Shown here one piece after another: positions 5,707 to 62,350 of a DNA stretch of 64,000 bases. Source of the DNA: Malacoraja senta. Lineage: Eukaryota. Both the position numbers and the translations under genes were made by a program. The notes under the pieces were generated by a model that saw only the letters and a list, made by a program, of their open reading frames with translations, made no database searches and was not told the origin of the DNA. Within the stretch, counting starts at the first letter, position 1. Every line of letters begins with the position of its first letter. The DNA lies in the NCBI GenBank assembly GCA_038087875.1, contig CM075996.1, positions 5,210,001 through 5,274,000 of the forward strand, in the 5' to 3' direction.

Positions 5707-5774
5707 ATGTCGAGCACCTCTCCAGGTACACAGAAGCGCAAGGAAGAAATTCAGAAAGGATTACACTTTATTCA
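5707..5774 (+). CDS. zc3h7a: ZC3H7A coding exon 1 (MSSTSPGTQKRKEEIQKGLHFIQ)
   Basis: Acceptor ttttctccacag ends 5679, ATG at 5707, donor CA|GTAAGG; matches the family N-terminal KR..I.KGL.FIQ motif. Confidence 0.9.
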
Positions 5775-14700: not shown

Positions 14701-17700
14701 AGGAGAAGGCGGGAGAATGGGGTTGCGAGGGAAAGATAGATCCGCCATGATTGAATGGTGGTGTAGACTCGATGGGCCGAACGGCCAAATTCTGCTCCTA
14801 TGACATATGAACGTATGTGAGTTACTAGCTGCTCCCCTTATTTTAGCTGTTTTAGTGTTTATGCAGATAGTTGAAGTTTACATTGGTGACATGTGAAGGC
14901 TGGCAAATGATGTGACTGTACCCAATGTCTGACTCCACTAATCCCACAACTATTCCCCTTTTTCAGCCTGACGTAGAAACAGTGGGCCTGACACCAATTG
15001 GAAATTCAGTGAACAGCGGGCATGTAAGTTGACTTTTGCCATTTTACTCCAGAGACAAGATTCCTTCAGAAATTTTAACAGAGGGACATGCTTTAGTTAA
15101 AACAACTGTAGTTTGAATGATATTCAATAAATCCAAGGGTTTGATATCCATGTGGATGCGAAGGAAATTGGACGAATCAATAATCGGTTAAACATTCAGA
15201 CACCGTCTCTCTTAAGAAATGTTCTGTCAATTAAAGATGGCCCCTTTAGACCACTAAAAAGATGGTTGTCAAAGCTGTATCTTTTCTACAATTGCATTAA
15301 TCCTTCTACTTTACAGAGTTGATCATTAAAATCTTCTCTGGCCCCTCACTACAATAATACTGTCTTTTGGATAAGATATAAAATCTAGGACCCACCAGCT
15401 ACATTATTGAGTTCACGTAGATTATTTGGGAACGAGCTGGAAAGTATTCTCCCTGTCCTGGCTGACATTTATCCTTCAATTAACTTAGCAGAAAGCATGG
15501 GTTATTATATCATTGCTGTTTAGTTTCGTCTAGAGATACAGTGTGGAAACAGGCCCTTTGGCCCACCGAGTCCGCGCCGACCAACAATCGCCCCATACAC
15601 TAGTTCTGTTCTACACTCCAGGGACAATTAACCTACAAACCTGCAAGTCTTTGGAATGTAGGAGGAAACTGGAGCAGCCGGAGAAAACCCACACGATCTT
15701 AGAGAGAACGTACAGACAACACCCATAGTCACGATCGAACCCGGATCTCTGCTATAAGGCTGCAACTCTTCCGCAGGGTCAATGTGCCTTCCTGTTTAAG
15801 GATTATTGGTGCGTTTAGCTGCAATGAATCCTATGAAAGTTTAATCAATTCCTTTAGATCCAAAGTGGATGACCCATATTTGCTTACACTGAAATATATT
15901 TTCCATAATTTTACTAATTTGTGCAATTGGAAATGTATATGCTGCTCTCTATGCCATCTTGCAATTTAGCAATAAATAGGGTGGATAGTTGAAGGTAGAC
16001 ACAAAATGCTGGAGTAACTCAGCGGGTAAGGCAGCATCTCTGGAGAAAGGGAATGGGCGACGTTTTGGGTCGAGACTCTTCTTCAGACGATTCTTCAGAA
16101 GGGTCTGAAGAAGGGTTTCGGCCCGAAACGTTGCCTATTTCCTTCGCTCCATAGATGCTGCTGCACCCACTGAGTTTCTCCAGCATTTTTGTGTACCTAT
16201 TCTTCAGAATAGTTGAGCTGCGAATTAGGATAACAGCCAATTATCCCACGGTGTCCTTGTTAAGAAATCAGTGAGTGCCAGCAGACAATAATTTGTCTTA
16301 ATTTACACGAGAGGACATTCTTGCAGTGACTCGTGTGCATCGCTTCAGTGTAATTACTATTCTTTCACTCTTGTACTTTATATGATTGTGCTTGTGTATA
16401 GTTAGATTTTAATTTACGTGTATGTAACAAAGGAAGTTCACTGTACTAGGGTACGTGACAAGAAAGTGCCATTGAACCATTCTCTATATTTTTGGATCGC
16501 ACAGACATGTCTAGCTCTCTAATTGAAAAACTTTCCTAATATTTGACCTTTTTTTATTTACCATATCATGGTGTCATATTGGCTAACAAGCAAACTTTCA
16601 TTAGCAAAGCAGGCAACAATGTAAGCCACTTTCTATATTCTCCCACAGATATCCATAAATGGCACTAGCGATATAGATGATATTGAATCGGGTAAGTTCC
16701 CATTTCATTTCTTTGTGTGGAGATATAAATCAGCACAGCAGTCACAGAGAGCAACGGGTTATGTCTTCTGGAAGTTCATGTAAATAACAAGCATAAGCAT
16801 GTCCTGTCCACTTTTTACAGATGCTGGTTTGTACCAAAGATAGACACAAATGCTGCAGATGCTGGTTTGTACCAAAGATAGACTCAAATGCTGGAGTAAC
16901 TCAGCAGGACAGGCGACCTGACCCGTCTAGTTACTCCTGCACTTTGTGTCTATTCTTGACTCTTGACTTGACTTCAGCAACTGACCATGGCAGAGAACAT
17001 ACTGGTTATATATTGTGTTTGTGACAGGATTCCCCCTTACAATCGTGTCTTTATTTCTATGCAGACTTGTCTTTGGAGTTTCCGTGTGCGCCAGGCCCGG
17101 CCAGCGCTCCCTCACTGGCCAGTGAACCCTCCAGCCCACTTCCATCGGCAGCCCTCAGTATCCAGCAGTCACAGGCCGACCCTGCCCCACTCAAGGGCCA
17201 AGGCGGTGATGGGGTCTCCCTCTCAGTGCCTGAAACTGCAGATGAGTTTGCAGATGGAGAAATTATTGGAGAAGACCTGGACACATTGTTGGATTCTTTC
17301 GGAGGGGCAAATGAATTTCCGACGGTAAGGGATAGGAGTAGATAAGGAGGAATGTAAATTCCAGTGGTCAGTTGGTCTTGTACTCTGGAGTATAACACAC
17401 AATTAGTTTCCTAATCAAGATTGCAATTCACCCGGTCTCAAGTTTCTGTGACTAAAAGCCCTGTCCCACGGTACGAGTTCATTCCAAGAGCTCTCCTGGG
17501 TTTGCCCTGATTCGAACTCGGAGATTTACGGTAATGGCCACTCGTCGGTACTCGGGGCTCTCGTGGACATTTTTCAACATGTTGAAAAATCTTCACGAGT
17601 CTTCCCGTGCTTACCTGCCGTTAGCGAGTCTTCCCGAGTACCGGCTGTTAGCATTACGAGCCGGTAAGAGATGTCCCCGAGCTCCGACGTACCCGCTACG

Positions 17701-20700
17701 TTCATTCTCCGTGCTTACCACGAGCTTGATTTTTTTTTAAACTCGGGAGAGCTCTTGGAATGAACTCGTACCGTGGGACAGGGCTTTATCAGTTTTAGTT
17801 TTGGATTTAGAGATACAGTGCAGAAATAGGCCCTTCAGTCCATCAAGTCCACACCGACCAGCGATCCCCGCACATGAACACTGTCCTACACTAAGGACAA
17901 AATGTTGTATTTATATCAAGCCAATTAACCTACAAACCTTTGTACGTCTTTGGAGTGTGGGAGGAAACCAAAGTTCTCGGAGAAAACCCACGCAGGACAC
18001 AGGGAGAACGTACAAACTCCGTACAGACAAACACTGGAGCCAGGATCTTGCCCGGGTCGCTGGCCTGTAAGCGCTGTGAGGCAGCACCTCTACCGCTGTG
18101 TCACCCTCTTTAAAAGTGGTCACAATTCTCCTGCATTCCTCTCTGTTTTTGGCGAGTGTTGTTGTACAGACTCACAGCCTGTTAGAGGGATGCTAATTTT
18201 GCATCGTAGGTGATTTTGTTTATTGGCAGAACCGCATGCTGACTCGCATCTATTTTCCAAGACTAAATGGCCTTTGGTTTGCAGGACGCTTGTTTGTCCT
18301 TCGACAAGCCTTGCTTTGATCCTGACGGGTGTCTGAACGTGAAGAGCACCATGTTTCAGGGACAGGGACATTCTGCAACAGAGACATGCTGGTGGAGTTT
18401 GCCACTGCCAGCTTGATCTAGGCCTAGTGTAGCGGTCCAGGACTTCCATGTGAAGCCTGCACTCACTGGAGTTTAGAAGGATGAGAGGAGATCTCATTGA
18501 AACCTAGCGAATAATGAAAGGCCCAGATAGAATGGACGTGGAAAGGATGTTTCCAATAATGGGAGAGTCGAGAACCAGAGACCACAGCCTCAGAATAAAA
18601 GGACGTACATTTAGAAAGGAGATGAGGAGGAATTTCTTTGGGTGAATCTGTGGAATTCATTGCCACATTCGGCAGTGGATGCCAAGTCATTGGGTATTTT
18701 TAAAGTGGAAATTGATAGGTTCTTAATTAGTAAAGACATCAAAGGTTATTGGGAAAAGGCAGGAGAATGGGTTGAGAGGGAAAATAGATCAGCCATAATC
18801 GAATGGCGGAGAGGTCTTAAGGGACCGGAGGCCTAATTCTGCTCCAGTGACTTATGGTGAGTGTGCAGGTGACTGCTAGCATAGCGATGGAAGAAATGAA
18901 TGAATGAATACGTTTATAGGCCAAATAGGTACACGTACAAGGAATTTGTCTTGGTGCTCCGCTCGCAAGTAACAACACGACATACGGTAACACAACATGC
19001 AGTAAAAGGTGCATTTGCGGAAAGCTGTGTAAGAACCACCGTGGCCTAAAAATCCATCAGGCAAGAATGAAATGCTCGGAGAGGGAGAAAGAGGTGCAGC
19101 GCGCAGGCCTTGAACCTGGTGAGATGCAGGAGGAGCCCGGCCAGGACTCACCCCACAGAGCCCAGTCCCTCCACGCACTCGAGTGTCTCCCAACCCCTGC
19201 AGAGTAGTTCCACAGCAACGGATTGAGTGGCCCCAGCGAGCAACCGGAATGAATGGCTGCAGTTTGACAAAGTCGTGCACTCTGCAAAGTCCTCAACCAG
19301 TTGGGCATTACGGGGCTGGCAAAGAAGGGGGCCATTCAATCCGCAAGAGAAGCCGCAGAGAAAGCCACTAGGTGGCTTTGGATTAAGAGGGCTGATCCGT
19401 GGGCGGTTGCTGCTGGGACGCAAGTCGGGGGCTGATCAACCCCGGCTGGGTCGCCTGGGCGAGGGTGTCTGATGTTGTGAGACCCGAAACACCCAATGAC
19501 AATAGACACTAGACAATAGGTGCAGGAGTGGGCCATTTGGCCCTTCCAGCCAGCACCGCCATTCAATGTGATCATGGCTGATCATCCACAATCAGTACCC
19601 CGTTCCTGCCATCTCCCCATATCCCCTGACTCCGCTATTTTTAAGAGCCCTATCTAGCTCTCTCTTGAAAGCATCCAGAGAACCTGCCTCCACCGCCCTC
19701 TGAGGCAGAGAATTCCACAGGTCACATCACTGAGGATGCGTCCCAGCGCATCTAGAAGATGTATCTTTCACACAATTAAGAATGACACATAAAACATTAA
19801 TAATAAATGTTTAATAATAAACATTAATAATAATAATAATAATAATGCCTGTTTATTGTCTCTGGACATAACACTCTGCTGTATCCGCAGGCATCAACAA
19901 CGGGGACAGTTCCCACCAACCTGCCCAACGATGTGTCCCGGCTCCTCGCCGTCTTACCCAGCGGTGCCCCAGTGCTTCCGTCTGCTGTGAAGGGTGATGT
20001 TGGCCCAAAGGTGTGTCTTCCACCAGCCTATTCAATGCTTCCCGCCCAGAAGATGGACACCCTGGACACTATCGGTCCATGCACAACTGTGAATGATCTC
20101 GATTCCTTGGACCTATTCCCTGGGACAGAACCTCAGCCTGGTAAGTATCTCTTCTTTCTTATACCATTGACCACTCATTTGGTGGGGAAACGCATCGGTT
20201 TGTTTAAAATCTTCTCCCAAGGCAAATGTGACTTTATGAGTTGTATTGTATCCATGGACTACTGGGCAACGCACACCTGATACCAAATACATCGGCCTTG
20301 GTGGAAGTTTAAACAAACTTGCAAAAATATTACCATCATTGTATGGTGCAGTTCTGCCGCCCCATTATAGGAAACATGAGGCTTTGGAGAGAGTACAGAA
20401 GAGGTTTACCAGGAAAGACACAAAATGTTGCAGTAACTCAGCAGGTCACGCAGCATCTTTGGAGAAAAGGAATAGGTGAAGTTTTGGGTCGAGACCCTTC
20501 ATCAGACTGAGACTTTTATCAGGGACGATGCTTGCTAGATTAGAGGGTATTAGCTGTAAGGAGAGGTTAAACAAACTTCAAGGTGGACAAAAGTGCTGGA
20601 GAAACTCAGCGGGTGTGGCAGCATCTCTGCAGCGAAGGAAATAGGCAACGTTTTGGGCCGAAACCCTTCTTCAGACTGATGTAGGGTGGGGGGGGTGGGA

Positions 20701-23700
20701 AGACGAAAGGAAGAGGAGGAGCCAGAGGGCTGAGGGAAAGCTGAGAAGGGGAGGAGACAGCAAGGGCTACCGGAAATTGGAGAAGTCAACGTTCATACCG
20801 CTGGGGTATAAACTGCCCAAGCAAAATATGAGGTGCTGCTCCTCCAATTTCCAGTGGTGCTCACTCTGGCCATGGAAGAGGCCCAGGACAGAAAGGTCGG
20901 ATTCAGAATGGGAGGGGGAGTTGACGTGCTGAGCCACCAGGAGATCAGGTAGGTTATTGCGGACCGAGCGGAGGTGTTCGGCGAAACGATCGCCAAGCCT
21001 ACGCTTGGTCTCACCGATGTAGATCAGCTAACATCTAGAGCAGCGGATGCAATAGATGAGGTTGTAGGAGGTAGCGGCGGAGGCTAAGGGGTGACCTGAT
21101 AGAAGTTTATAAAATTATGAGAGGCATAGATATGTATACAGTGAGAACTTTTAGCCCAGAGTGGAGCTGTCAAATCTAAACTAAAAACAAAAAATGCCCA
21201 AATCCATCTGCGGATCAGACAGCATCTGTGGAGACAGACACGTTGGATTTGGAGGAGTTTAGTGGGGTGACAGTGGTTGGATTATGAGAAAAAATTGCAC
21301 TCCTCCACTCTCCGAGAGAGTTCCCTGTTTTCACACATTCACACTTCCTTATCTATCTATCTCCCTCCCCCTGACGTCAATCTGAAGAAGGGTCTCGACC
21401 CGAAACGTCATCCATTCCTTCTCTCCAGAGATGCTGCCCGTCCCGCTGAGTTACTCCAGCATTTTGTGTCTTATCGTTGCACAATCTAGACTTCCATTAA
21501 ATGTTAGAGATTTTCTTTAAAATTAAGATAGAAAAGGGGTATCGGTAGGGTTGATAGAAATTATTTCTGCAGCAGATGAATTGAGGCAGGAGAGGACGGG
21601 CGCATCGTACGAAAGTTAAAGAATGTAGTAATGTATTGGTATGTAGTTTAGTTTAGAGATACAGCATGGAAACAGTCCCTTTGGATCTGTGGTTTACTGT
21701 CCATGAACCTCAGTTCACTGTGTAGGAAGGAACTGCAGATGCTGATTTAAACTGAAGACAGACACACAATGCTGGAGTAACTCAGTGGGTCAGGCAGCAT
21801 GTCTGAAGAAGGGTTTCGACCTGAAACGTTACCTATTCCTTTTTTCCAGAGATGCTGCGTGACCCGCTGAGTGAGTTACTCCAGCCTTTTGTTCCCAACC
21901 TCAGTTGCTCTTCATTCATCTCATTGCTGTGTTCTGTGTTAGTTGCTTCATTAATTCCTTTCCCTGTATTTTACTACAATAAAGATAGTTGTTTGCAACT
22001 GTGAGATGTTCTTTCTTCATTCATTGATCCGAATCCTCAACCCCGCTTAAATTTTATCGCAATAATAATGAAGATCATTTTTGTGCTTCACCAGCATCGA
22101 GACCAATGACGCCAAACAACAATAAGAGCGCACCAAGCAGCTTCTCATTGGTGAGCCCGATGTTTTCATTACACCTTCTTTATGGCAGTTAGATTTATGG
22201 TTAGTCCAGGAAATATGTTGGTCCGGACACAGTTGCTTTCATTGTTTAGTTTAGATTACTTTAGAGACACAGCGTTGAAACTGGCCCTTCGGCCCACCGA
22301 ATCCACGCCGACCCTCGATCACCCGTTCACACTTGTTCTATGATATCCCACTTTCGCATCCACTCCCGACACACCAGGGGGCAATTTTACTGAGGGCCCA
22401 TTAACCCTCAGGCCTGCACATCTTTGGGATGTGGGAGGAAACCAGAGCACCCACGAGATCACAGGGAGAATGTGCAAACTCCACACAGACAAGCACCCGA
22501 GGTCGGAATTAAACCCGGGTCTCTGGCACTGTGAGGCAGCAGCGCTATCAACTGTGCCACTGTGCTGCCATAGCGACAATGAATTTATCACACGAACAAA
22601 CTTTTCACACTGACTAAACCTTTCTAGCGTTTGCCTTTTTTTCGGGAGCCTCCACGCCGTGCTGTGATCCAATGCCTTTACGACCTTGGTTAACAAAGAC
22701 ATTCACCGTGCTCAGATGGTCAAAGTGAGAGTGCACACTGTGACCAGCCCCTGTCCCATTCTCATCCGTCACCATTCTGCCTGCTCTCTAGCAACAGGCA
22801 GTGGGTGGGAATCAAGGCTCTCACTGAATTTTGAAGATCAAGTGAAAAGTCCAAAAATCCAGATTACTAGATGAGGTCATTTGATTATTCGGGTATGGCA
22901 CTATGAGTGTTTATTGTTCATCCCCAATTGCCCTTGAGAGTAGTTGCTGATCAGGTAGTTTCTTCAACATTGGGCTCCCACTGTGCTGTTGGGTTGTAAC
23001 CCCCTGGATTTAGACTCCGTGATGAAGGGAATCCTATCCAGCAACGACCTGGTAGAAGCTGCATTGCAGCTCGTGGTGGACAGGGCAGGACTGAATCACC
23101 CCGATCCTGGCCTCTCTCCACTGGCTCCCTGTGCGGTTCCGAATAAATTTCAAGATCCTCCTCCATGTCTACAAAGCCCTCAATGGGCTTGCCCCCACCT
23201 ACATCAAAAGTCTTCTTACCCACCACTCCACCTCCAGGCCCCTCAGATCGGCCGACTTGGGGTTGCTGAATATCCCGCGGTCTAGGCATAAGCTCAGGGG
23301 CGACCGCGCCTTTGCGGTTGCAGCTCCTAGACTGTGGAACAGCATCCCCCTTCCCATCAGAACTGCCCCCTCCATCGACTCCTTTAAGTCGAGACTAAAA
23401 ACCCATCTGTACTCCCAAGCCTTTCTTGACGTCCTCTGAGCGAGGGCTGTATGTATGTAGTTTGTTTGTTGTACTATTCTTATACAAATGTAAAGCACTT
23501 TGGCCAACGAGAGTTGTTTTTTAAATGTGCTATATAAATAAATGTGACTTGAATCGGCAGCAGTATTCCTCACACTCTGTGCCAGCTGTCAGAGTAAGGA
23601 GGGTTGCAGGGGAAAGTGGGCAGAATCCTCACTCGCCGTCTCTTTCTGCACCAGGGTAAGCAAGTGAGCTGCCCGGCCACATCCAGCTATCCCGCCACCT

Positions 23701-26700
23701 TCCTTGGATTAGTGCAGAGAGGCAGCGAATCGACTCCGTCGCCGCTGACAAAAAACCCGCTCAGCGACACACACGATCTGTGCCAGGCCTGTTCCAGCTG
23801 CTTTATTAAAACAGGTAAAGAGAACTCTGCACCTTGACTCCTTGTGCTCAGCCATGGGGCTGGTTGCAGAATGCGTGGGGCTGAGTGAGTGCTTCCGTCG
23901 GTATCTGTTGTGAGGTAGGAGGGAACTGCAGATGCTGGTTTAAACTGCAGATAGACACAAAAAGCTGGAGTAACCTAGCAGGACAGGCAGCATCTCTGGA
24001 GAGAAGGAATGGGTGACTTTTTGGGTCGAGGCCTGAAGAAGAAGCTGACGGGTTTGAGGGCCCATTATTTCTCGAACACGAGGCCTCCCAGCTGTTATCG
24101 GGCAACTGGTTAGCACGCAGCGAAAGCTTTTCACTGTACCTCGGTACACATTAAACTAAAGTGATGATATTAAACTAAACTAAACAAGCCTATCTATGCT
24201 AATCCCATTTGCCTCTTTTTGGCCCATGTCCCTCTACACTTTGTTAAAGAAGGAACTGCAGATGCTGGAAAATCGAAGGTACACAAAAATGCTGGAGAAA
24301 CTCAGCGGGTGCAGCAGCATCTATGGAGCGAAGGAAATAGGTAACGTTTCGGGCCGAAACCCTTCTTCAGAAGAAGGGTTTCGGCCCGAAACGTTACCTA
24401 TTTCCTTCGCTCCATAGATGCTGCTGCACCCGCTGAGTTTCTCCAGCATTTTTGTGTACCTTCCCTCTACACTTTCCTATCTAAGTAAAAATGGACACAA
24501 AGTTGTGGAGTAACTCTGCAGGTCAAGCAGCATCTCTGGAGAACATGGACAGGTGACATTTCGAGTCAGGATCCTTCTTTAGCTATCAATGTTTGGGAGC
24601 ATTGCATTTAACTTTGGATGGGTGACTGTTTTCTTGGATGGGAAAATAGAGTTAGAGATGGGAAAAGTGAGTTGTTATTATTGTAGAGGAGGTAGTCCCC
24701 CTAGTCCTCACCTTTCACCCCACCAGCCGTCACATACAACAAGTGATCCTCCGTCAGTTTCGCCACCTCCAACGTGACCCCACCACTCGCCACATCTTCC
24801 CATCTCCCCCATGTCTGCCTTCCGCAAAGACCGCTCCCTCCGTAACTCCCTTGTCAATTCTTCCCTTCCCTCCCATACCAGCCCCTCCCCTGGTACTTTC
24901 CCTTGCAACCGCAAGAGATGCAACACTTGTCCCTTCACCTCCCCCCTCGACTCCATTCAAGGACCCAAGCAGTCGTTCCAGGTGCGACAGAGGTTCACCT
25001 GCATCTCCTCCAACCTCATCTATTGCATCCGCTGCTCTAGATGCCAGCTGATCTACATCGGTGAGACCAAGCGGAGGCTTGGCGATCGTGTCGCCGAACA
25101 CCTCCGGTCGGTCCGCAATAACCAACTTGACCTCCCGGTGGCTCAGCACTTCAACTCCCCCTCCCATTCCGTATCTGACCTCTCTGTCCTGGGTCTCCTC
25201 CATGGCCACAGCGAGCAACACCGTAAATTGGAGGAAATGCACCTCATATTCCGCTTGGGCAGTCTACATCCTGGGGGCTTGAACATTGAATTCTCCCAAT
25301 TCTGCTAGCCCTTGCTGTCCCCTCCCCTTCATCAGCCATCTGGTTGTCTCCTCCCCTCCCCCAGCCCTCGGGCTCCTCCTCCGCCTTTTTCCTTTTTTCC
25401 TTTCTTCTCCCCACCCCCTATCAGTCTGAAGAAGGGTTTCGGCCCGAAAAGTTGCCTATTTCCTTCGCTCCATAGATGCTGCTGCACCCGCTGAGTTTCT
25501 CCAGCATTTTTGTGTACCTTAGGTGGTAACACATGTTTGCTCTGAAATAAGGTGAAAATAAAGGTGTGGATTTCACTGAAGTTCTTCACAGGACTGTTTT
25601 CAATATTGCTTTGCCAATACAACAGGTAGAGGTTGACAAGTTTCCTCAGAATTGACCACTTCTTCTCTAATGTCCATTAATCATAGATATCAACTAAATC
25701 AGTTGAGAAATATCTAGGTGCCCATTAGGGAATGGAAGTGAATGTGAAAAATTGATGGCATTGCGAGTAAGTAGCTGGGTCATCTAATCAAAGGAAACTG
25801 CAGTGAGTTGCTTCTCATGTTAAATCTCCATTGTAACCTGCCGTGAGTTTCTTACTCTGTTATGTTGAACCCACTGAAACCTTGAGGGGCAATTGCTCAT
25901 TTAAGTATGTTAATGGCTTGGAGCTCGGCACTGAATTCAACATTGTGTAGGAAGGAACTGCAGATGCTGGTTTACATCGAAGATGGACACAAAATGCTGG
26001 AGGAACTCAGTGGGTCGGGCAGTATCTCTGCAGGAAAGGAATAGGTGGTGTTTCAGGTCAACAGTCTTCAGACTGAGAGTCATGGGAAGAGGGAAACTAG
26101 AGGTCTGAAAAGTTCAGAATAAATCAGAACCGGCATCGAATACTAAGGAAAGGTGGAGCCCACAATGGTTAACTGTTGGCTGTGGTAGAGTTGATAATGA
26201 CAGGATATATGGAGCTGTGGATGAGGTAATAACCAAGTGTTGATCGATGTCGTCATCGACGTCTAACCTTAACTCTGTTTTTCTCTCTCCGCCGTTGCTG
26301 CCTAAACTGCTGGGAATTTCCACCATTCTCTTTGTTGCAGGTTTCCAGCAACTACCATGTTCAGTATCTCACATACCCTGCATTATAATTTTCCTTTCTC
26401 TCTGTATTCGCATTCATGTCCCTCTATGTACAGCTCCTCGAGGCAGACCAGCTGCAGTTAGGAACACGCCACCACCCTCTCTCAGCTAGCACCAACTCCA
26501 TCCGTGTCCTTTAATGTCGTCTCTCCGCAGAGATTCCCTTTCTTCCCTCCACCACTCTCCCTCCTTTCAACTGAAAGCATGCTTGTTTTCCAACTTTACC
26601 TTGTTCGGAAGAAAGACCTGAAAGATTAATTCTGATTCCCTCTCCATCGACACTGCCTGATCTTGATCTGCTGAGCATTTTCTGCTTTTTCTGATTTGAC

Positions 26701-38700: not shown

Positions 38701-41700
38701 GTATGAACATTAAATGGCCTCTCTTCAGGTTCAATGTTGCAGCCTGGCATGTTCACCCCTCTGTCGGAAGTGTTAATGTGCTCGGATTCTGACACCAGCC
38801 ACCCTTTAGTTCCTTGGCCAAGTAGCCTTGCTTTCCGCAGTGGTGCCTGGATGTTAGGTTTGCAGTCTATTCAGCTCTCTATTGCAGCAGGTACACTCAT
38901 TAATTATCAGCTTGCGCTTCGATCTCCACACACACTCCACAGTGATCAGAGCTAGACACTGGCTACTCCTGACACACCATTGTTGAGATCAGTTGTATGA
39001 CCTGCGAGTGCAGAGAGACGAGGGCTGCCGAAGCTCAGCAGGTCAAGCAGCATCTCAGGAGGATGTGGGTAGGCAACGTTTTGGGTTGGGACCCCTCTTC
39101 AGACTGATTGTAGGAGGGGGGGGGGAAAGCTGGAAGAGATTGAATATGGGTCACCGATCAACTGGAATAACTTTCCAGTGTTCTAACTGACTGCAGGGAG
39201 ACAAAATTGCTGGAGAAACTCAGCGGGTGAGGCAGCATCTATGGAGCGAAGGAAATAGGCAACGTTTCGGGCCGAAACCCTTCTTCAGACTGATCAGTCT
39301 GAAGAAGAGTCCAGACCCGAAACATCACTGATCTATGTTCTCCCAAGGTGCTGGCTGACCAGCTGAGTTACTCCAGCAATCGGTGTCGTTGAGTGTAATC
39401 CGTCACCACTGGAGCCATTCCACCAAACCTCTTCCGAAGCTTTCACTTTCTTCCTAAGGAGTGATCTTCCTCTGGTTTTTGCGCAGATGGACGAAAGAGC
39501 GGCGGGTGATGCTGGTGATGTCCAGCGAGCGGAAGAAGTGGGTTGCCATCCGTCCGCTGCCGTCTTGCAGGAACATCCCTCAGCAGTATGACGTGAGTAC
39601 AGGGAGGCAGCAGGCTTCATGGCTTCCATGACTTTACTTTCGCAGCCATTGATGTTTTTAGTTTGAAGGGCCTGTCCCACCTTGCGATTTTTTTTATTCG
39701 GCGACTGCCAGCATCATATCAGGGTCGCCGAAAGATTTAGAACATTTCAAAATCCAGCGGCGACAAAAAAAATGTCGCGGCACTTGGAAAAAACACCGCG
39801 CGTCAATACGTCATCACGCCGCACATTTTTCCGTGACCGGATGCGTCAGTCAATGATGCCGGCAGTCGCCGAAAAAATCGGCAAGTGGGACAGGCCCTTA
39901 AGAGACACAGCGCAGAAACAGTCCCTTCGCCCGCCGAGTCCGTACCGACCAGCTCTATCTTATCCCACTTTGTTATCCACAAGGCAGGGTTTGCTTGGCC
40001 TTTCTTGCGGGGTCAATCCTCCAATGTGTTCCGTCTGCTTATTTTCCAGTTGTGTTCGCACGTGGCCAACGGGAAGAAGTGCCTGTACATTGGGAACTGT
40101 TCCTTTGCCCACAGTTTGGAGGAGCGCGATGCCTGGACCTACATGAAGGAGACCAAAAGTGAGTAACTTTCATTTTCAAACTGTTATCCCCCCCCCCCCC
40201 TGCGAGTCCACACTTGCTGGCTCCATTCAAAGAGAAGCACTAGCCCTCTTAAATCACCCGGCGGTCTGATTCTCCCGTCGCCTCTGGTTGCAGCTATCAA
40301 ACGCTCTTTGTGATTTAAAAAAAACAAAAAAACTTGCCCTCAAGATCCACTTGGACTCTCCCATCTCTCACCTTAAAGCCAGGTTTCTGATAAACCGAGC
40401 AGAAGATGGTTGTGCTGATGTATAATCGTACTCGTGTATAAGCAGGATTTGACCTGGATTGTACACCAAGTTTCCCCCCCCCCCTGCAACTCGAGTTCTT
40501 CCATTTGCCGTCTTTCCGTACAGTGCACGACATGCAGCAGGTATATGAGATGTGGTTGAAGAGTCAGAAGCCAATGATGACCGGGGGGGCGACCGATCTT
40601 TCCACTCGGCCAACTGAGAAGCAGATCCACATGCCCACTGACTACGCCGACGTGGGGGTATGTACGGCACCTCCAGATCAGCATCTGTTTATGAAGAGTG
40701 GCCTCTCGTTCGCCGTTTCTTCTCGGGGTGGGTTACTTTCTCTCCTCACTGCGTCTGGTCCATCGTTTCCTTCCCCCCTGGGCTAGTTCTCCCTCACTCT
40801 GTCACTGCCTTCCCCGGTGTCTGTCTCTTGCTCGCTCCCTTCCTGTTTCGTCCTCTCCGGGCTCCAAATCGTTGAGCCACCACACTGGTTCTTCCGGGAA
40901 ACCAGTTTGTTCCTCTGCACACTTCTAACCTAGTCGACAATAGACAATAGGTGCAGGAGTAGGCCATTCGGCCCTTCGAGCCAGCACCGCCATTCAATGT
41001 GATCATGGCTGATCATCCCCAATCAGTACCCCGTTCCTGCCTTCTTCCCATATCCCCTGACTCCGCTATTTTTAAGAGCCCTATCTAGCTCTCTCTTGAA
41101 AGCATCCAGAGAACCGGCCTCCACCGCCCTCTGAGGCAGAGAATTCCACAGACTCACCACTCTCTGTTCTAAATGGCTTACTCCTTATTCTTAAACTGTG
41201 GCCCCTGGTTCTGGACTACCCCAACATCGGGAACATGTTTCCTAACTCTAGCGTCCTGCTCATCTTCCTGAAGGAGGCACGCAAGAAAAAGTAAAAGCAG
41301 TGGTCTCCCACTGTTCCAAACCCACCATTGGCAGTGGAGTAAAAAGCCCAGCCTGCCCCCCTCTCTCTCTCTCTGGACTCTATCCATCCTACCATCCTGT
41401 AAAGGATCCTCCCCTTTCCTCCATGCTCCAGTCTGCCATGGAACAAGCCAAAGGAGTTTGGGGAGGAGAACGTCAGAGCAATTCAGTCTCTTATCACTGA
41501 AAGTGAACCAGAGTAGGGGTGTCAGGCGTTATGGGGAGAAGGCAGGAGAATGGGGTTAAGAGGAAAAGATAGATCAGCCATGATTGAATGGCGGAGTAAA
41601 CTTGATGGGCCGAATGGCCTAATTCGGCTCCTAGAACTTATGAACAGAGGAAAAGGGGAACTCAACAGATTCCGAAGAGATAGAGGGATAGGCTGCAGTT

Positions 41701-44353: not shown

Positions 44354-44960
44354 TGGATAAAACCGGTTCAGTTTAATTGTTACTGAAACCTTTTAAATTT
44401 AAGGAGAATTGATTTTGATAACTTGATGGGTCGTCACGAATCGCGACCTCGTTACGCTGAGGTGATTCTTGTCGACTCGCTTGGCTGCATTTCTCTCCCG
44501 TCTTAAATGCAGTTGTTGCCGGAAAAGGGGAAAACGCCTACACAGCATCAAGTAGTGCTCACGACTGCTGCGGGTAGGGACGAAGGGGGTGGGGGGGGGG
44601 GTCTGTGCGGGTGCCGTAAGTGTGAGGTCAACGGGTCAAACACCTCCACGTTGACTGGTTTTACAAACCCTCCCCACACTACAGCACGGCGAGAGGTGGC
44701 TCTGTGAGTTGACTCTGTAGAACTGAGGAGCTGTTGACAGTCTCAGCCCACTTTCTTCACCGAGATCACTAATTGCTGTATTTTGAGGAACCCAGTTACT
44801 GTACCTCCCGACACAGCTCGTGTTGGAACTTGACCAGGGTTTTTTTATTTTTTATTTAACCTGTGATCGTTGGCCAACAATACTTGCAGGTGCAAACAAA
44901 CTGTGATCGTATCACATAAATGGACATACCCTACCCTAGTGAGGTTGTAGTGCAGTGAGA

Positions 44961-44986
44961 AATAAATATGGGGGGGGGGGAATAAA
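44961..44986 (+). promoter_or_regulatory. Candidate proximal polyadenylation signals (two AATAAA) of ZC3H7A
   Basis: AATAAA at 44961 and 44981, about 610 nt after the stop; further candidates near 49423 and 51127. Usage cannot be determined from sequence. Confidence 0.35.
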
Positions 44987-47900
44987 TGCCAGAGAGTAGA
45001 AACAGGGCATCGCGATGCACAATTGTTAATATGACCAGGCTGAGAGGTTCACGTTTTTTTTAATATTTATGTTTAAGAAGGAACTGCAGATGCTGGAAAA
45101 TCGAAGGTAGACAAAAGTGCTGGAGAAACTCAGCGGGTGAGGCAGCATCTATGGAGCGAAGGAAATGGGCAACCAACGGTTTCGACCCGAAACGTTGCCC
45201 ATTTCCTTTTTAAAATATTTATTATGTGTTTGTCTCGGGTCAGCAGAGCTGTTTTAAAAAGGGAAAGATGGCGTTGGTTATGATTTGCCAAGGAACGTTA
45301 CTGAGATGTTAGCCAGATGACAACCTTGATTTCAACAGATCACATCCACCCAGGCCATCTCCTGAACTGATTTTTTTAAAGGAACGATGAGATACTTTAA
45401 AAGCATCAACTAGTGCCAGGCGCTAATATTCCCATTTTCTTCCTTTTACTCTCGAAGTCCAGCAAAGATATCCACTTTCCGTATTCTAACCCATCTGGTC
45501 ACTGTTGTGTGTGAATGTAGATGTTGGGGAGAGGGGTGTGTTGGCTCCACTCTCTTCGAGAGATGACAAAAGGGTCAGTGAGTGATCATCGAAAGGAAAA
45601 ACCCTGACTGAATTGTGTTGGTTTTGTTCGCCCTATTTGAACAGCCCAATGACTGAGGGTAGTTGTAGAAACCAGGAACTGCAGATGCCGGTTTACATTA
45701 AAATAAGACAAAGTGCTGGAGTAACTCAGTTGGTCGGGCATCATCTCTGGCGAAAAAGGATGGGTGACGTTTCCGGTCGGGTCTGAAGAAGGGTTCCCAC
45801 CCATAACATCTCCCGTCCTTATTCTCCAGAGATGCCGCCTGACCCACTGAGTTACTCCAGCACTTTGTGTCCACCTTAAGTCTAGGATTTTGTGGATTTT
45901 GCCCCAATCACCTACCAAAGCCAAGAAAGCGTTCCTTTAACTTCATTTTTTTTTGAGAGGGGAGAAAGGGCCAAAATATCTTTGACTGCACACTTTGGAT
46001 AGTTAAAAGAGAGAATTTTTGCGAATCAATGATTTGATGGATGGGCCAAAATAACAACTGCCTTGTGCATTAGTTGAATGCAATGTTATGGCTTTCTTCT
46101 GCTGAACAATAGTGCCACCCCCTTTATTCATACAGGGCTACTCCTCCTCAAACATGGCGCAGATGTATTTTAAAATTGATTAAACATCAGGTCATATGAA
46201 TTTGTTAATATCACGTTGGAAGTTATTGTTTGCCGAGTCTATTCAAGGAATCAATGGGCCATTCTATCTGAAGATTCACGGAAAGGCATCTTCCTCAGTA
46301 GGATTAGCCTGGTGTCCAGGAATGAACCTTCAGGACACCGTCATGTACAATCATGGGCCAAAGTCAAAAAGGGATTAAAACAAAAGAATGCATTGTTTGT
46401 TTCTGCAACCCATTCTGTCAGATGTCATCCAAATTGGTGTTCATTGTGAGTTTTGGAGAGGGGGTGAGTGTGTGTAAGTGTTTTTTTTGGGAAGCTGGCT
46501 TGTTACCAATAACACCTGATTCCTTTGTCTGAACTCATTCCATTTTACTGTTTTCTAGTAAACTTCTGTGTACTATTTTTTTTTTAAATATTAGAAGTTG
46601 TTTGATGGTTAAGAACCATCCATTCAGGCACGCAATGTCCTATTGCTTTTGGTTTCGGAAAGGTTGTGGAGCGATGCAAGATTGAATAAGTTGCATTGCA
46701 AATGTTGAACCTGGCACCAGTGCAATTAATGTAAGAAGGAACTGCAGATGCTGGTTTACATCGAAGATAGATAGGCACAAAAAGCTGGAGTAACTCAGTG
46801 GGTCAGGCGGCACCTCTGGAGAAAAGGAATAGGTGACGTTTCGGGTCGAGACCCTTCATCAGACTGTCTCGACCGGAAGCGTTACCTATTCCTTTACAAC
46901 AGAGATGCCGCCTGACCCGCTGATCCAGCATCTTCTGCCTATATTCGGTGCATTTACTAACTGGCCACGTGGGACCACATGCAGGAAGATGACCAACCAC
47001 AGTGGGCACAATAATGAGGGGGCATTAGTAACTGAAGGGATCAAGACCTCTGCATTAAACAGAAATAACATTTTACCACCCAACTTGCAAAATAGAAATC
47101 TTAAGATGTCCTCATCCATAACTGTGGGGTTACTGAGACGAAAGTGGAGATGGGGTAGGTCGTAACAGGAAAATATGCATGCTGTAATCATATTACTGTT
47201 GAATTAGTATTAGAGAAAAGAGGAATAGTTTCCCTCCTTCGTGTACCTGAAAATAAGCTTAAATAAGATTTGATAAGAAAGTTTGGCACAAGGCCATAGT
47301 TAACAGACAAACCTGGTTCAGTTAATTTTTTTTCTGCAACCATTTCTTTAGGAATCTAAGCAAGGTATGAATTTATGAAATTATGAAATAAGTAAGTGCT
47401 TCACATGTATCTTTGTTCAAATGTTATAAATATTATATTATTGATGGCATGAAGTAATTGTAAGGAATTGTAATTCAAATCATTGGAGATGGGACAAATC
47501 TTTTTTTCCCTCATTAAGCTTGTGTACTGCATTGCATTTGGCTGACAACGAGAGCGTGAGCCTTGAGTGAAAGAAAACAGAAGTATTCGGGTGGCAAAAG
47601 AAAAATCAGGTTTCAAATGCAAGTTATAGCGTTGGCGGATGAATTTGGCCTCTTCTCGTTGGTGGCCAGCTGGTGTTCTGATCATGGTAACCCCCGGCCA
47701 AAAATTGCATGTCGGGGCTGGACTTTGGCTGGGATGCCATTGACAGTCAAACAGCCCGCTGGATTAAATGCAAGAGTAGCCATGCACAAGAAGTCTGGCT
47801 GGGGTGGGATTGCTAATTCACAAGGGATTTTTACAGTGCTTCCATGTTAGTTTGTCACTGTGGAGTGCTGTGGCAACAGAGCAAAAAGGTCAAAGGTGCA

Positions 47901-50900
47901 GGAAGGATCTGCGATGCTGGTTTACACCAAAGATAGACACAAAATGCTGGGAGTAACTCAGCGGGTCAGGCAACATCTCTCGAGAAAAGGAACAGAAGAC
48001 GTGTTGGGTCGAGACCCTTCTTCAGACTGAAGAAGAGTCTCGACCCGAAACATCGCCTGTTCCTTTTCTCCACAGATGCTGCCTGAGTTACTCCAGCATT
48101 TTGTGTCCATCTTCAGAGCGAGAAAGTCAGTGGATTGCACTGACCTGGCCTCAGGATTACTCCAGGCAGTGGGAGACAGGGTGGAAGAGCACAAAGTTTT
48201 TAAAGATTTCTATTACATTGCCATGGTAAAAAAAAAAGTCTTATTCATTTAGTTCAGAGGCCAGAACATTTAAATTTGATAAGGCATTTGATGAGAGGCG
48301 TTAGTCATTCAGCACGATGAGAGGGGATGGAATTGTTTTGTCAGATCGTAGATAAACATAATCATGAATATGATGATATGGAGTAAATTGGGAGAGGGGT
48401 GAAACTTGCTAAATAAGTATTTGATAACTAATATTAAACGAAAGGCGAGTTGAAGAAAATGTCTTTCTGTAGACAGTGGTTAACTGTTACTAGAATACAT
48501 AATAGTTTTTAAGATTTCAAAGATAATGTTTAAATGGACTTGGGGAGAGGACAAATCTAGGTGGGCAGGTCATCCACAGTCTGAACAGACCAACACGCTC
48601 TCCTGTTGGAGTGTAAAGTTTCAATTGGCCCGCCATGTGAAAGTTTCATTGCCAGAGGTTGTGACAAAGTGGGATTACAGTGATGATCTCCCACCTTACC
48701 TCTACCCCAAATCTATAGTTAGATGGCCCTGACGTTGCTAGCTGGATATCACTCATCAGCAGAGCAGTGATGTCTTTGGAGGTCCAGGCTACTCATGGGT
48801 GGGGTGGGGTTTGGTGGTAGTGTCAGTGGAGGGCAGAGTGAGGGCAGCGGGTTGAGGGCATTGACTGGAGATGTAGGCGGGATAAACTAGGATCATGATA
48901 TTGGATCCTAGTGCTGAAGTGTTGAGCATGGGGTCGTTGTGACCCTGACACGTGACCTTCAGCCATATTCCAGACTGACGAGCAACCGGGTCATGCGGTC
49001 CATCCGCTCCATCGTTTTGCTGTACTCTGGGGAAGAACAACGCTGAGTGGGAGCAAACCTGATGAAAGCTGAGGAGATGATTGTGCTTGTGGCCAAATGA
49101 TCTGCAAAATGGCACTGGAATAGAAGAGAGATTGGAGTTAAAGGAAATAATATTGGGGTGAAGGTGGGGGATTTCCCCCCACCCCCCTCTCTCTTCAGAA
49201 GCTCTAACTTCTCATTGCAGCCATATATCTGCTCATCTGTTCATATAAAGATATAAATATATATATAACTAGACATATAAAGTACATTACTGTGATAATG
49301 TGTTGGGGCCACCCATGGCTTTGCTGAGTGTGCAACATGTTGACACACTCTTAAAATGCTTGGTATTAAAATGTCTTTAACTTCCTAAGAGAGCATGTGA
49401 AAGCAAGGTGGCCCCTTTATAGAATAAAGAAAGTAAATGTAGTGATATATTATAGGCCCATGTTGATGCATAGGCTTGTTTGGTGAATTTGTATATGTCA
49501 ACCAATATTGATGTGGATTAGTAATCCAGATTTTTTTGAGATATGACTAAAGACTATAATGGAAACTAAAATGACGGGGAATTGTAATCATACTGCATGC
49601 AGTGGGTAAAGTAAAGTGGGATTAATGTGCTCATACTTACAGAGAACCTGCTTTACTGGTCACTTTGATTCTCTTGTCTTCCGTCAGACTTAACAGTTGG
49701 TGTGTTTCTGAATTTCAATTGCATTGTATTGTGGACAGGGCTGGATGTGGCGATTGGGTGGGAACAAACTCCTGCATAAAAGACAGAGTCCCTTCAGCTG
49801 GCTCCAACACCAACCATTTCACCTCCCGAGCAAATCCCATTCCTATCATAGCTCCACCGTCACCCATTTCCGGACCTAAGCCCATCATCGCCACCGATCC
49901 AAGTCCAACCCCCATCATACACTCCAAGATGGCACAGTGGCGCAGCAGTAGAGTTGCTGCCTTACAGCGCCAGATATTCTGGTTCGATCTGGTTTCAATA
50001 TATAACATTGTACAAAATATTCTGCCCACTCTCCTCAAGGGCAGCTCAGGGGTAAAGTTGCTGCCTTGCAGCGCCGGAGACCCGGGTTGGATCCCGACTA
50101 TGGGTGCTGTCTGTACGGAGTTTGTACGTTCTCCCCGTGACCGCGTGGGCTTTCTCTGAGATCTTCGGTTTCCTCCCATGCTCCTAAGACGTACAGGTTT
50201 TAGGTTAATTGGCTTGGTGTGTGTGTAAATTGTCCCTAGTGTGTGTTGGATAATGTTAATGTGCGGAGATTGCTGATCGGTGAGGACTCGGTGGGCTGAA
50301 GGGCCTGTTTCCATGGTGTATCTCTAATCTAAACTAAACTTTTTTACTGGGCTTGCTAGTTGTCAACCTCCCCCCCCCCCCCAACATCTAGAACTTCTTA
50401 CGCCCTGGGAGTCTGAACTAAAATGTACCTTTAGAAGGTAGACACAGATCATTGGGGACTGGGTGTGTAGTTAGGGATTAGTAGAGATGAGGGTGGGGGG
50501 TGAGGTATGGAGGCTTCTGTCACCCTCAGATGTAAAGTCACTGGTAGCATAGGTCCCTAGCAGGATTTTATGTCTTTCTCACTGTACCCTTCAGTCCACA
50601 GGTTCTTGGGGAGAGTCTGAGTGTGATGTACTGTAAGTAAGGAGAGATATCCTGTTCTCTAACAAATACTTGTCTCTACCACAGCAAGCATCACATTCTT
50701 CACCCTCGTCTTCTGCAGTTTTGTGCTCTGTCCTAAGAATAATGTGATTAAAATCTATCTTGGTCAAGTGCAAAATACAAAAGTTTGCATTTGGACCCAC
50801 AGGTGACCATATAATGCAGGTCTCAAGTACATTGGGTGGTCTTCTTATTGAGTCCACACACAAGGTTAGAAGTTGTCCAGCCAGAGCTGAACACACTTCT

Positions 50901-60716: not shown

Positions 60717-62062
60717 AAGGTTCAGAAAGACTCGGAAAGGTTTCACAGTGTACCTGGGGTGCATGTTGTGGTGCCATCATCCCCATTTATTGGTGTGGCA
60801 TGGGACTCATCGGACTCTGTAACACCAAGGAATTCATAGTGAGTAATTCATAAAAAGCATTAATGTAAAAAGTTTATAAATTCAATAAACTTTGATTAAA
60901 AGATTTTACTGGCAGAAGAAGTCTGTGCGCCCTTGCCAAGACCAAGCCCTCCAAGCAGTAGCTGTGCCATTGCGACTCGGGGATCTGTAACATCTCCTCC
61001 CTCAGTAGCACTGAGTAGGCGTAAACGATTCTTTCGTGTGGCGTCCTTGGGTGCGACAAGCCGTTTATTGTCACGGCATTGGTATTAGCCTGTCGCATGA
61101 TCTGCAACAAAGAGAGTGCAATCCTGGTAAGTATTTTTTGGGAGGGGATGGAGAAACGTGGACGTCGGGCGGAGTAAATGAGAAATTTGCTGATGGTTCA
61201 CCCGAAAGCACTTACATCCGCGAACATCTCCCGCTGAAGTTGTTGAACAGGCACGTCGCAACCTGCCGCAGTTGTGCAGGCCGGCTTCCGCTTGGCATGC
61301 TGCTGTTTGTCCGCAGTGCCGGACCCAGAGGGTCCCTCTGGGGGATCCGTCTTGCCCTCTCTCGAGTTGGCGCACGATGATTTCCTCCTGGTAACCTGGA
61401 AGAATGTAAATGTGTATCAGAAATGTGCAAGGCCATCAGGACGTAGCAAGCAAGGTGACCACCAAGTTATCATTGTCAAATATCATTTGACTATCTCACT
61501 TTCCAACAAATTATAATTGTCACATCATTTTCTTAACTATTCACCTTCTTGCCGCTCTGCCTCCTCTGGATTATGTGGTTCCGCACGAACCCCCATTTCT
61601 CCACTATCCACTGGTCTCTGTCAGTCAGTGGCTTACTGGCAGAGCCAGACTTGCCAAGATTGTGAGACAGCTTCCCAAACCGTGTCCTCTGACTCTTGAG
61701 CCATTTACCCAGTTGGTCAACTGTGAAAACATAGAATAAATGAGGATCAGTGTTGAGCAAATTGTAATCTTAATTGGAACTGCAATTACAACCACAGAAA
61801 TGTAGACAAACTACAAAGTATGTACTTACAAGAGCAGCCAGGGAACTCCTTCGCCTTGTCTTCAAGCATCGCGTTGCGGTGATTCCTGCTCCTGAACTCA
61901 CTATGGTACTTAACGTACAGTTCTCGGTGGGCCTGATACCATTCTACCAGGTCTTCCTCTTGTTCCCTGGTAAAATAATAAGGCCTTGTCTTCTTCTTCG
62001 CCGGCGCAGCTGAGGCATCCGTCTCCTGAGCCAAACCCGAGTCCCATTCTGCAGCAGCAGCT

Positions 62063-62350
62063 GGGGCAGGAGCTGAGGTGGGAACTGGGGTAGGAACTGG
62101 TGAAGGTGCTGAGGTAGGAGATAAGGCAGGAGATGGGGCAGGAACTGGTGAAGGTGCTGAGGCAGGAGATAAGGCAGGCGATGGGGCAGGAGATGGGGCA
62201 GGAACTGGTGAAGGTGCTGAGGCAGGAGAGAAGGCAGGAGATGGGGTATGAACTGGTGAGGGTGTTGAGGCAGAAGATAAGGCAGGAGATGGGGTAGGAA
62301 CTGGTGAGGGTGTTGAGGCATAAGATAGGGCAGGAGATGGGACAGGAACT
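62063..62350 (-). repeat. Coding minisatellite, 48-bp unit (SPALSxASxPSPVPxP), about 5 copies, in Harbinger ORF2
   Basis: Visible in ORF 61786..62541. Confidence 0.85.

What the first reader, a model, noticed from the sequence alone, without database searches (positions are those of the whole stretch)
16105..48050. Dispersed hammerhead-ribozyme motif in Penelope-derived mini-elements filling the ZC3H7A introns
Seen: the most abundant short repeat in the window is the 3' terminal repeat of the GIY-YIG elements at 24710, 20581, 32570 and 34097. It contains CTGAAGA-A-[GGGT TTCG GCCC or GGGT CTCG ACCC]-GAAA-CG-T(T/C). Sense-strand copies start at 16105, 21382, 30551, 34798, 37573, 42992 and 43763, among others. 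The two subfamilies keep stem II paired (U-G vs U-A) and keep the ACGU palindrome. Established: Penelope-like elements carry minimal type-I hammerheads with a palindromic stem III thought to act as dimers. Inference: this is a high-copy, non-coding, retrozyme-like family, and one pre-mRNA carries many sense copies that could pair into dimeric ribozymes. Stem I is only 2-5 bp, so activity is uncertain.
Basis: partly seen in the sequence, partly recalled or inferred. Interest (0 to 1): 0.72.

Follow-up and report, generated by a model that had tools for sequence, protein, structure and literature searches.

The report
Penelope retrotransposon ends carrying hammerhead motif
These are about fifty short, decaying leftover ends of a known kind of jumping gene (Penelope-like retrotransposons) scattered through one gene of a cartilaginous fish; they carry a hammerhead-ribozyme motif that is conserved in the element's distant relatives, but the copies in the gene likely do not cut the host RNA, so the finding is mostly ordinary.

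Summary
The motif is real and is the known minimal hammerhead of Penelope-like element (PLE) terminal repeats. The window holds 54 copies of the repeat (22 plus, 32 minus); 13 keep an intact core. The same motif follows the GIY-YIG gene in 23 of 75 distant relatives, with compensatory changes in 8 of 9 pairs. The host gene is ZC3H7B, not ZC3H7A, and copies past 44352 lie after its stop codon. The copies are not tandem retrozymes but 5'-truncated PLE ends: 28 of 54 sit in head-to-head inverted pairs, 8 of 14 pairs have target-site duplications, and none has two tails. Five of eight intact sense cores are predicted locked in these hairpins. The core is conserved among source variants but decays at flank rate after insertion. 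Only 2 of 54 copies start near the cleavage site, so the templates were likely uncut. Unexplained: tail-bearing arms point antisense to the gene 17:3. Four inverted pairs likely lie in the 3' UTR. This scan noted the same inverted-pair pattern before in two shark genomes. Verdict: new member of a known kind, low interest.

The parts
5707..44352 (+). Host gene ZC3H7B, coding span (about 20 exons)
   Evidence: spliced contig over three exons
44353..49500 (+). Likely 3' UTR of ZC3H7B (end not mapped), holding four inverted pLTR pairs
   Evidence: contigs of X1 and X5 cover it piecewise at depth like the spliced contig; continuity inferred, not bridged
24698..25521 (+). 5'-truncated PLE: linker with CX4CX2C, GIY-YIG domain, pyrimidine tract, pLTR; palindrome mutated (GAAAAGTT)
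20580..21072 (-). 5'-truncated PLE, part of GIY-YIG domain plus pLTR, subfamily A, core damaged
32568..33336 (-). 5'-truncated PLE, GIY-YIG domain plus pLTR, subfamily B, palindrome mutated
34097..34894 (.). Inverted insertion: tail arm with seven 35-bp tandem units on minus, GIY-YIG fragment and intact-core pLTR (34798) on plus; 9-bp TSD
15990..16230 (.). Subfamily B copy (minus, 8-bp TSD) with a subfamily A copy (plus, core at 16105, own 11-bp repeat on both sides) nested at its 5' end: two events
   Evidence: nesting read from the sequence
21363..21471 (+). Solo subfamily B pLTR, intact core at 21382
21716..21896 (.). Head-to-head pair, tail on minus arm, intact sense core 21803, 10-bp TSD
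24236..24463 (.). Head-to-head pair, arms 99% identical, tail on minus arm, 14-bp TSD
28798..28956 (.). Head-to-head pair, tail on minus arm, 10-bp TSD, no core
30422..30643 (.). Head-to-head pair, tail on minus arm, intact sense core 30551, 10-bp TSD
36032..36255 (.). Head-to-head pair, the only one with the tail on the plus arm; no TSD found
37464..37680 (.). Head-to-head pair, tail on minus arm, intact sense core 37573, 8-bp TSD
39195..39380 (.). Mixed A/B head-to-head pair joined at a short palindrome, no tail, no TSD found
42989..43087 (+). Solo subfamily A pLTR, intact core 42992, 15-bp TSD
43622..43864 (.). Head-to-head pair inside a SINE-like repeat, tail on minus arm, intact sense core 43763, 16-bp TSD that is also repeated at the centre; arms differ at two shared diagnostic sites
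45069..45210 (.). Inverted pair after the stop codon, tail on minus arm, short plus arm, 9-bp TSD
45674..45878 (.). Inverted pair after the stop codon; sense core broken
46722..46942 (.). Inverted pair after the stop codon; intact core only on minus
47892..48114 (.). Inverted pair after the stop codon; sense core broken (48027)
34798..34825 (+). Type copy of the minimal hammerhead: CUGAAGA, unpaired A, 4-bp stem II, GAAA, CG palindrome, UH

Best explanation
The repeat is the hammerhead-bearing terminal repeat (pLTR) of Neptune-type Penelope-like retrotransposons, and the copies are 5'-truncated insertions, many as head-to-head inverted pairs, that likely have no ribozyme activity in the host RNA. 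Shown: identity of the repeat, pairs, TSDs, one-sided tail, core conservation across distant elements, neutral decay after insertion. Inferred from published biochemistry: the element's protein nicks both DNA strands and starts reverse transcription inside its own RNA at one of two sites about 95 and 130 nt past the core; the two sites give the two 3' ends (without and with tail). Copying stops, in most cases, within a few bases upstream of the core, which yields a pLTR-only stub; when both DNA ends are extended the two stubs join head to head. The hammerhead matters in the source element's life cycle (likely protein-assisted, dimeric, slow), and the RNAs that made these copies were likely uncut. 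Once inserted, the stubs drift.
For: Four GIY-YIG fragments end in this repeat and no PLE reverse transcriptase lies in the window. Linker CX4CX2C is present, a Neptune/Nematis mark in PMC8557442. Motif downstream of the endonuclease gene in 23 of 75 distant loci, antisense 1 of 75, shuffles 0-1; outside the motif the flanks are at background identity. 8 of 9 pairs with two-sided changes, 0 of 500 shuffles reach the covariation score, slid controls 0.02-0.13 against 0.48. A model built from 20 non-window sequences finds 23 window copies at E<0.01 and all 33 hits at E<=1 lie on pLTR copies. L014 is a full element with a 936-aa RT+GIY-YIG frame between two direct hammerhead repeats. 14 head-to-head pairs, none with two tails, 10 with one; 8 of 14 with a flanking repeat of 8-16 nt, null P(>=9)=0.0045. 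5' ends: 39 of 54 at or before profile position 12, 2 of 54 near the cleavage site. Subfamily B: 12 core changes against 32 expected, but private changes 5.7% in core and 6.0% in flank, p=1.0. Intact cores are not depleted on the sense strand (8 of 18 against 5 of 17, p=0.49). Literature: low in vitro activity and mostly solo copies (PMC4209133); two RT start sites, protein-assisted cleavage, uncleaved template, no RNA ends at the site (PMC11167929); inverted copy and one-sided tail (PMC8557442, PMC3846280).
Against: No cleavage was measured and no raw RNA reads were available, so inactivity rests on folding predictions and decay patterns. The one-tail rule is weak on the automated count alone (p=0.078 for 10 tails in 14 pairs; 0.035 with one tail added by eye; 0.005 with four more pairs added by eye). 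Six of 14 pairs show no TSD, and at least one (15991/16103) is two nested events. The two-start-site model comes from a Poseidon element, not a Neptune one. No full-length element from this species was seen. The 17:3 tail polarity is not explained by this account. Clade assignment rests on a motif, not a tree.
Confidence: 0.85

Rival explanations
1. One reading: sense copies in one pre-mRNA pair through ACGU and cleave as dimeric ribozymes, affecting ZC3H7B processing.
For: Eight sense copies keep an intact core; 21382 and 21803 share an intron, 421 nt apart; PLE hammerheads cleave weakly as dimers in vitro (PMC4209133).
Against: Five of eight are arms of hairpins whose inverted arm is transcribed first; predicted stem II probability 0.00 in context, 0.03-0.12 for the other three; the dimer skeleton is about -13 kcal/mol against -21 to -31 for the best alternative dimer and -141 to -192 for sense-antisense duplexes. 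Stem I is 2 bp. No selection on inserted cores, no sense depletion.
Confidence: 0.05
2. The stubs are a separate non-autonomous, retrozyme-like family that amplifies from its own transcripts (tandem or circular RNA) using the PLE protein in trans.
For: Stubs far outnumber endonuclease-bearing copies (50 against 4); 5' ends are sharply clustered; a 2026 preprint derives animal retrozymes from pLTRs and finds them in one chondrichthyan.
Against: No same-strand core-bearing neighbours closer than 421 nt; the only tandem (35-bp units at 34170-34380) lacks the core; copies include the core upstream of the cleavage site, unlike ribozyme-released monomers; stub and parent pLTRs are the same sequence; pair centres differ from copy to copy. 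The whole genome was not available, so arrays elsewhere are not excluded.
Confidence: 0.1
3. Tail polarity arises from selection: the tail read in the sense direction is a cryptic 3' splice acceptor, so sense tails are purged from the gene.
For: 17 minus against 3 plus, p=0.0026. Subfamily A tails score at the 97-99th percentile of AG sites on a matrix built from the gene's own 19 acceptors, as good as real ones.
Against: Subfamily B tails score lower and unevenly (best site at the 59th-99th percentile) yet are as biased; all four post-stop tails are also antisense; tail-less copies carry good acceptors too (21382: 99.5th percentile). One locus only.
Confidence: 0.35
4. The motif is a chance look-alike of a hammerhead in an ordinary repeat.
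For: No Rfam hammerhead family matched at E<=1; the stem II fold is rarely the predicted best fold; A-versus-B core excess is not significant.
Against: Position-specific occurrence, invariant core and covariation in distant elements.
Confidence: 0.02

Closest known systems
Minimal hammerheads (min-HHR) in PLE terminal repeats, Cervera and de la Pena 2014 (PMC4209133)
   Same: Core, unpaired base before stem II, G-C at its base, palindromic 15.2-16.2 with no stem III loop, location in the pLTR, mostly dispersed single copies from truncated elements, opposite-strand neighbours.
   Different: Stem I is 2 bp here (4-5 bp in the Schistosoma families; 2 bp in D. virilis), stem II is 4 bp. No shark or skate example in the parts I read or in one of two supplement files (the other file could not be searched).
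Neptune clade of endonuclease-positive PLEs (PMC8557442)
   Same: C-terminal GIY-YIG with CxxC and two His, CX2-5CxxC linker, 5' truncation, inverted 5' copy, 30-40 bp tail at one end.
   Different: No full-length copy or RT in the window; Nematis shares the linker, so the clade is not proven by tree.
Poseidon element of Anolis (PAc), Frangieh et al. 2024 (PMC11167929)
   Same: Two 3' ends separated by a tail, a similar distance past the hammerhead; uncleaved RNA as template.
   Different: Other clade; there the ORF starts at stem II, here most cores read CUGAAGA and the frames through the pLTR are closed.
Non-LTR retrozymes (PMC7229834; bioRxiv 10.64898/2026.07.22.740005)
   Same: Non-coding, type-I hammerhead, PLE-derived.
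   Different: Those are tandem repeats of 150-450 bp with a hammerhead per unit, expressed as circles; these are solo or inverted stubs with TSDs.
Inverted Alu pairs in mammalian 3' UTRs (recalled, no call)
   Same: Retroelement-derived hairpins in a likely 3' UTR.
   Different: Here one insertion makes the hairpin; editing or retention is untested.

Membership tests
EN+ Penelope-like element | GIY-YIG endonuclease with CCHH motif at the ORF end | tested here: met
   Pfam GIY-YIG E=3e-4 and 8e-4, just under the curated cut-off; 63-65% identity to shark and ray RT-EN proteins; motifs
EN+ Penelope-like element | Telomerase-like RT in the same ORF | tested here: inconclusive
   Absent from the window's truncated copies; present in relatives P0011 and L014
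EN+ Penelope-like element | pLTR after the ORF, inverted 5' copy, tail at one end, TSD | tested here: met
Neptune clade | CX2-5CxxC linker between RT and EN | tested here: met
   definition
Neptune clade | RT phylogeny with reference elements | not tested
   no RT in the window and no named reference sequences fetched
Minimal type-I hammerhead of PLEs | Invariant core CUGANGA / GAAA / UH | tested here: met
   12 invariant columns in 25 sequences
Minimal type-I hammerhead of PLEs | Stem II with covariation; palindromic 15.2-16.2 | tested here: met
   stem II 90% paired, palindrome CG in 23 and UA in 1 of 24
Minimal type-I hammerhead of PLEs | Stem I of 4-5 bp | tested here: not met
   2 bp in this species' pLTR; 1-6 bp in relatives, with covariation in the inner pairs. 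Treated as a short-stem variant, as in D. virilis
Minimal type-I hammerhead of PLEs | Self-cleavage as a dimer | not testable with these tools
   needs in vitro assay
Non-LTR retrozyme | Two or more consecutive tandem units each with a hammerhead | tested here: not met
   none in the window; genome not available
Non-LTR retrozyme | Expression as small circular RNA | not testable with these tools
   only contigs were available

The most novel reading that the evidence does not exclude
The minimal hammerhead works mainly as a pairing signal: its ACGU palindrome loads two uncut RNAs on a dimeric PLE protein, each DNA end of the break is primed from a different start site (one with tail, one without), and host transcription decides which end gets the tail. 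That would explain uncut templates, the one-tail rule, arms of two haplotypes in one TSD (43622-43864) and the 17:3 polarity, and would make cartilaginous-fish genomes a very large natural record of the PLE mechanism and a source of ready-made hairpins in 3' UTRs.
Probability: 0.12. Interest if true: 0.65.

Novelty: new member of a known kind. Interest (0 to 1): 0.2.

Why it matters
As found, little: PLE hammerheads and inverted, tailed insertions are described. The value is as material. The role of PLE hammerheads is still open (PMC8557442), and this locus shows that inserted copies record how the template was used: core kept by source elements, templates uncut, tail on one arm, polarity tied to the gene. 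If the polarity holds genome-wide in young insertions it would constrain the integration mechanism; if it appears only in old ones it would measure selection against cryptic splice sites. The hairpins after the stop codon are candidates for double-stranded RNA handling.

Tried and rejected
Rfam scan at E<=1: no hammerhead family; the miRNA-family hits (mir-722, MIR1507) are below gathering score and come from the hairpins. No genome held, so no genome-wide count. RNA search: no RNA holder listed on record; only contigs could be laid, which show no ends, strand or level, so cleavage ends and A-to-I editing were not tested. Competing hairpin GUUUCG/CGAAAC in subfamily A: predicted probability mostly under 0.3, 0.55 in one B copy; not the main off-fold. 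Mixed A/B pairs as proof of two templates in one event: rejected for 15991/16103 (nested, own repeats) and unproven for 39193/39293 (no TSD). Arm partners as nearest neighbours: mixed; top-ranked in young pairs, not in old or mixed ones. Splice acceptor just before the core (ATCAG) as the cause of 5'-end clustering: ends spread over 0-7 nt upstream rather than at one base, and the site scores 94th percentile; an initiator-like TCAGTCT (consensus recalled) or a reverse-transcriptase stop at the C-rich tract fits as well; not resolved. Orientation controls: four other repeat seeds gave 7:5, 5:3, 5:2, 4:4, too few to exclude a general bias. Viral contigs gave one weak locus. Paper searches: 'Penelope + hammerhead ribozyme + cartilaginous' 0 papers; searches listed nothing on these elements or on tail polarity; the library lacks most subscription papers. 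Lunse et al. is not held; seen only as a reference.
Full report
Observation. The pattern CTGANGA-N5-30-GAAA occurs 28 times in the window against 5.5 by chance. A profile built from 16 window copies gave 66 hits and none in the reversed window. I dropped 12 hits under 30 bits (six 35-bp tandem units, two short pair arms, four weak or old pieces) and kept 54: 22 on plus, 32 on minus. A structure descriptor finds 13 intact cores, 8 on plus and 5 on minus, plus one spurious match across a pair junction. Rfam has no matching hammerhead model at E<=1, as expected for a motif without stem III.

Setting. Best protein hits are from sharks and rays, so the host is a cartilaginous fish. The gene is ZC3H7B, not ZC3H7A: 83-99% identity to chondrichthyan 7B against 68% to Callorhinchus 7A on one exon, with exons from 5707 to a stop near 44352. 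Of the 54 copies, 39 lie in the coding span's introns, 7 before the start codon, 7 between the stop and 50100, and 1 beyond.

The element. Four fragments carry part or all of a GIY-YIG domain followed 96-118 nt later by the motif. None reaches the reverse transcriptase. The linker CX4CX2C is the mark of the Neptune and Nematis clades in passages of PMC8557442; I did not build a tree. The other 50 copies are the terminal repeat alone, about 95 nt, or about 130 nt with a tail.

Is the motif a real hammerhead? I fetched 93 loci with related endonucleases (43-54% identity for most). Of 75 with at least 350 nt downstream, 23 have the motif on the sense strand, 22 of them 88-150 nt past the endonuclease gene; 1 of 75 has one antisense; shuffles give 0-1. 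Many of these loci belong to a few families, so they are not 23 independent cases. An alignment of 22 locus copies and 3 window copies has 12 invariant columns that are the catalytic core and the unpaired A. 8 of 9 proposed pairs change on both sides; 0 of 500 shuffles and no slid control approach the score, although relatedness inflates the shuffle test and I chose sequences by a motif pattern. Past the cleavage site the families are at background identity. A covariance model from 20 non-window sequences finds 23 window copies at E<0.01. L014 is a whole element: a 936-aa RT plus GIY-YIG frame between two direct repeats, each with the motif. So the motif is conserved by the retroelement. Between subfamilies A and B alone the test has no power (0 of 13 against 14 of 83, p=0.20); the four differences in the motif fall in the loop, at H17 and at two U-G/U-A pairs.

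How the copies are built. 28 of 54 are arms of 14 head-to-head pairs; none has two tails, 10 have one, 4 none by the automated call (47905 has a damaged tail by eye). The chance of no two-tail pair is 0.078 on that count, 0.035 with 47905, 0.005 with four more pairs added by eye. Eight of 14 pairs are flanked by a repeat of 8-16 nt, one of which (15991/16103) is two nested insertions. Tail-less 3' ends cluster at profile positions 98-107 (26 of 34). This is the arrangement described in passages of PMC8557442 and PMC3846280, and the two ends match the two internal reverse-transcription starts in PMC11167929 (parts 1-2 of 4 read). 5' ends lie at or just before the core in 39 of 54 copies (five of these run on upstream) and near the cleavage site in 2 of 54. 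A ribozyme-cut template would begin at the cleavage site, so the templates were likely uncut, as PMC11167929 found in vitro.

Do inserted copies act? In subfamily B the core has 12 changes where 32 are expected from base-matched flanks, but private changes are equal in core and flank, 12 of 210 against 88 of 1470. Selection therefore acted on source elements, not after insertion; subfamily A is too young to tell (0 of 100 against 12 of 670). Intact cores are no rarer on the sense strand (8 of 18 against 5 of 17). In 500-nt context the five paired sense cores are predicted fully paired with their inverted arm, which is transcribed first, and the other three form stem II with probability 0.03-0.12; sense-antisense duplexes are about ten times more stable than the dimer skeleton. 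Only 21382 and 21803 share an intron and 21803 is a paired arm. These are equilibrium predictions without protein. Published min-HHRs cut poorly even as dimers (PMC4209133, parts 1-2 of 4 read).

Retrozyme? Retrozymes are tandem units each with a hammerhead (passages of PMC7229834; bioRxiv 2026.07.22.740005, parts 1-3 of 5; its supplements are closed and may name chondrichthyan families). None is in the window. Arrays elsewhere in the genome are not excluded.

After the stop codon. One contig of run X5 joins three exons and runs to 44559, so X5 holds spliced RNA; other X5 contigs (45848-46757, 48084-48562, 49292 on) have the same depth, 8.5-10.7 against 10.2. Run X1 covers 44585-49500 in five pieces at depth 98-136 against 3 in one intronic bin. 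The pieces are about 5% divergent from the window and end inside the arms of the four inverted pairs, so these insertions are shared with organism A (all four) and B (three). Against: the tool labels X1 'probably DNA', one exon-bearing bin has depth only 4 in X1, and no contig bridges a hairpin. The 3' UTR placement is thus likely, not shown. None of the four sense arms keeps an intact core; three fold into hairpins of 74-88 pairs.

Unexplained. Tail-bearing copies are 17 minus to 3 plus (p=0.0026), tail-less ones 15 to 19. A cryptic acceptor in the tail fits subfamily A but less well B and the post-stop copies. Copies are also scarce beyond 50100 (1 in 13.9 kb, p=4e-5; p=0.09 if about 9 kb of larger elements there is discounted, a rough figure). 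Both could reflect transcription-linked insertion. This is one locus. The pair at 43622 has arms of different shared haplotypes and a TSD repeated at its centre; two templates in one event and two insertions at one site both fit, and PLEs are said to insert next to earlier copies (passage of PMC6765202).

Novelty. The motif, its place and the insertion anatomy are in print. I found no paper on these chondrichthyan families or on tail polarity, in a library that lacks most subscription journals. Two earlier notes of this scan describe the same inverted stubs in shark genomes; my reading was set before I saw them. Verdict: new member of a known kind, interest 0.2.

Noticed in passing
window 44353-49500: Likely long 3' UTR of ZC3H7B with four inverted pLTR hairpins shared with related organisms; candidates for dsRNA editing or retention.
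   Followed up: partly
window, whole gene: Tail-bearing arms point antisense to ZC3H7B 17:3; cause unknown.
   Followed up: partly
window 43597-43880: The 16-bp target duplication occurs three times: both flanks and the pair centre.
   Followed up: partly
window 34135-34390: Seven tandem 35-bp units from the pLTR's 3' part, followed by a duplicated piece of the endonuclease gene; looks like template slippage during insertion.
   Followed up: no
window 28640-28800: A subfamily A copy sits next to the tail end of the 28798 pair, with a 13-nt sequence repeated around it; clustered or nested insertion.
   Followed up: no
window 37292-37422: Copy with B-type stem II and A-type 3' part and tail: recombinant or intermediate subfamily.
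   Followed up: no
window 26607-26693 (+), 57412-57488 (-): Weak hits that look like older, third-type pLTR copies.
   Followed up: no
window 58096-62568: DDE_Tnp_4 (Harbinger-like) transposase pieces on plus with an opposite-strand ORF containing a 12-bp tandem repeat; GTGGGACAGG-type repeats with inverted ends at 11880-12200, 17450-17785, 27600-27900 may be its MITEs.
   Followed up: no
window 52898-57460: Two nested LINE-type reverse transcriptase fragments on minus.
   Followed up: no
L082-L093: PLE sequences lie in bacterial and archaeal-collection MAG contigs; most likely animal-host contamination of those assemblies.
   Followed up: no
L014:269-3448: Whole PLE with an open 936-aa frame and a hammerhead whose palindrome is UA instead of CG.
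   Followed up: partly
window 24300-24440, 43680-43830: The hairpins give sub-threshold Rfam miRNA-family matches; could mislead miRNA annotation.
   Followed up: no
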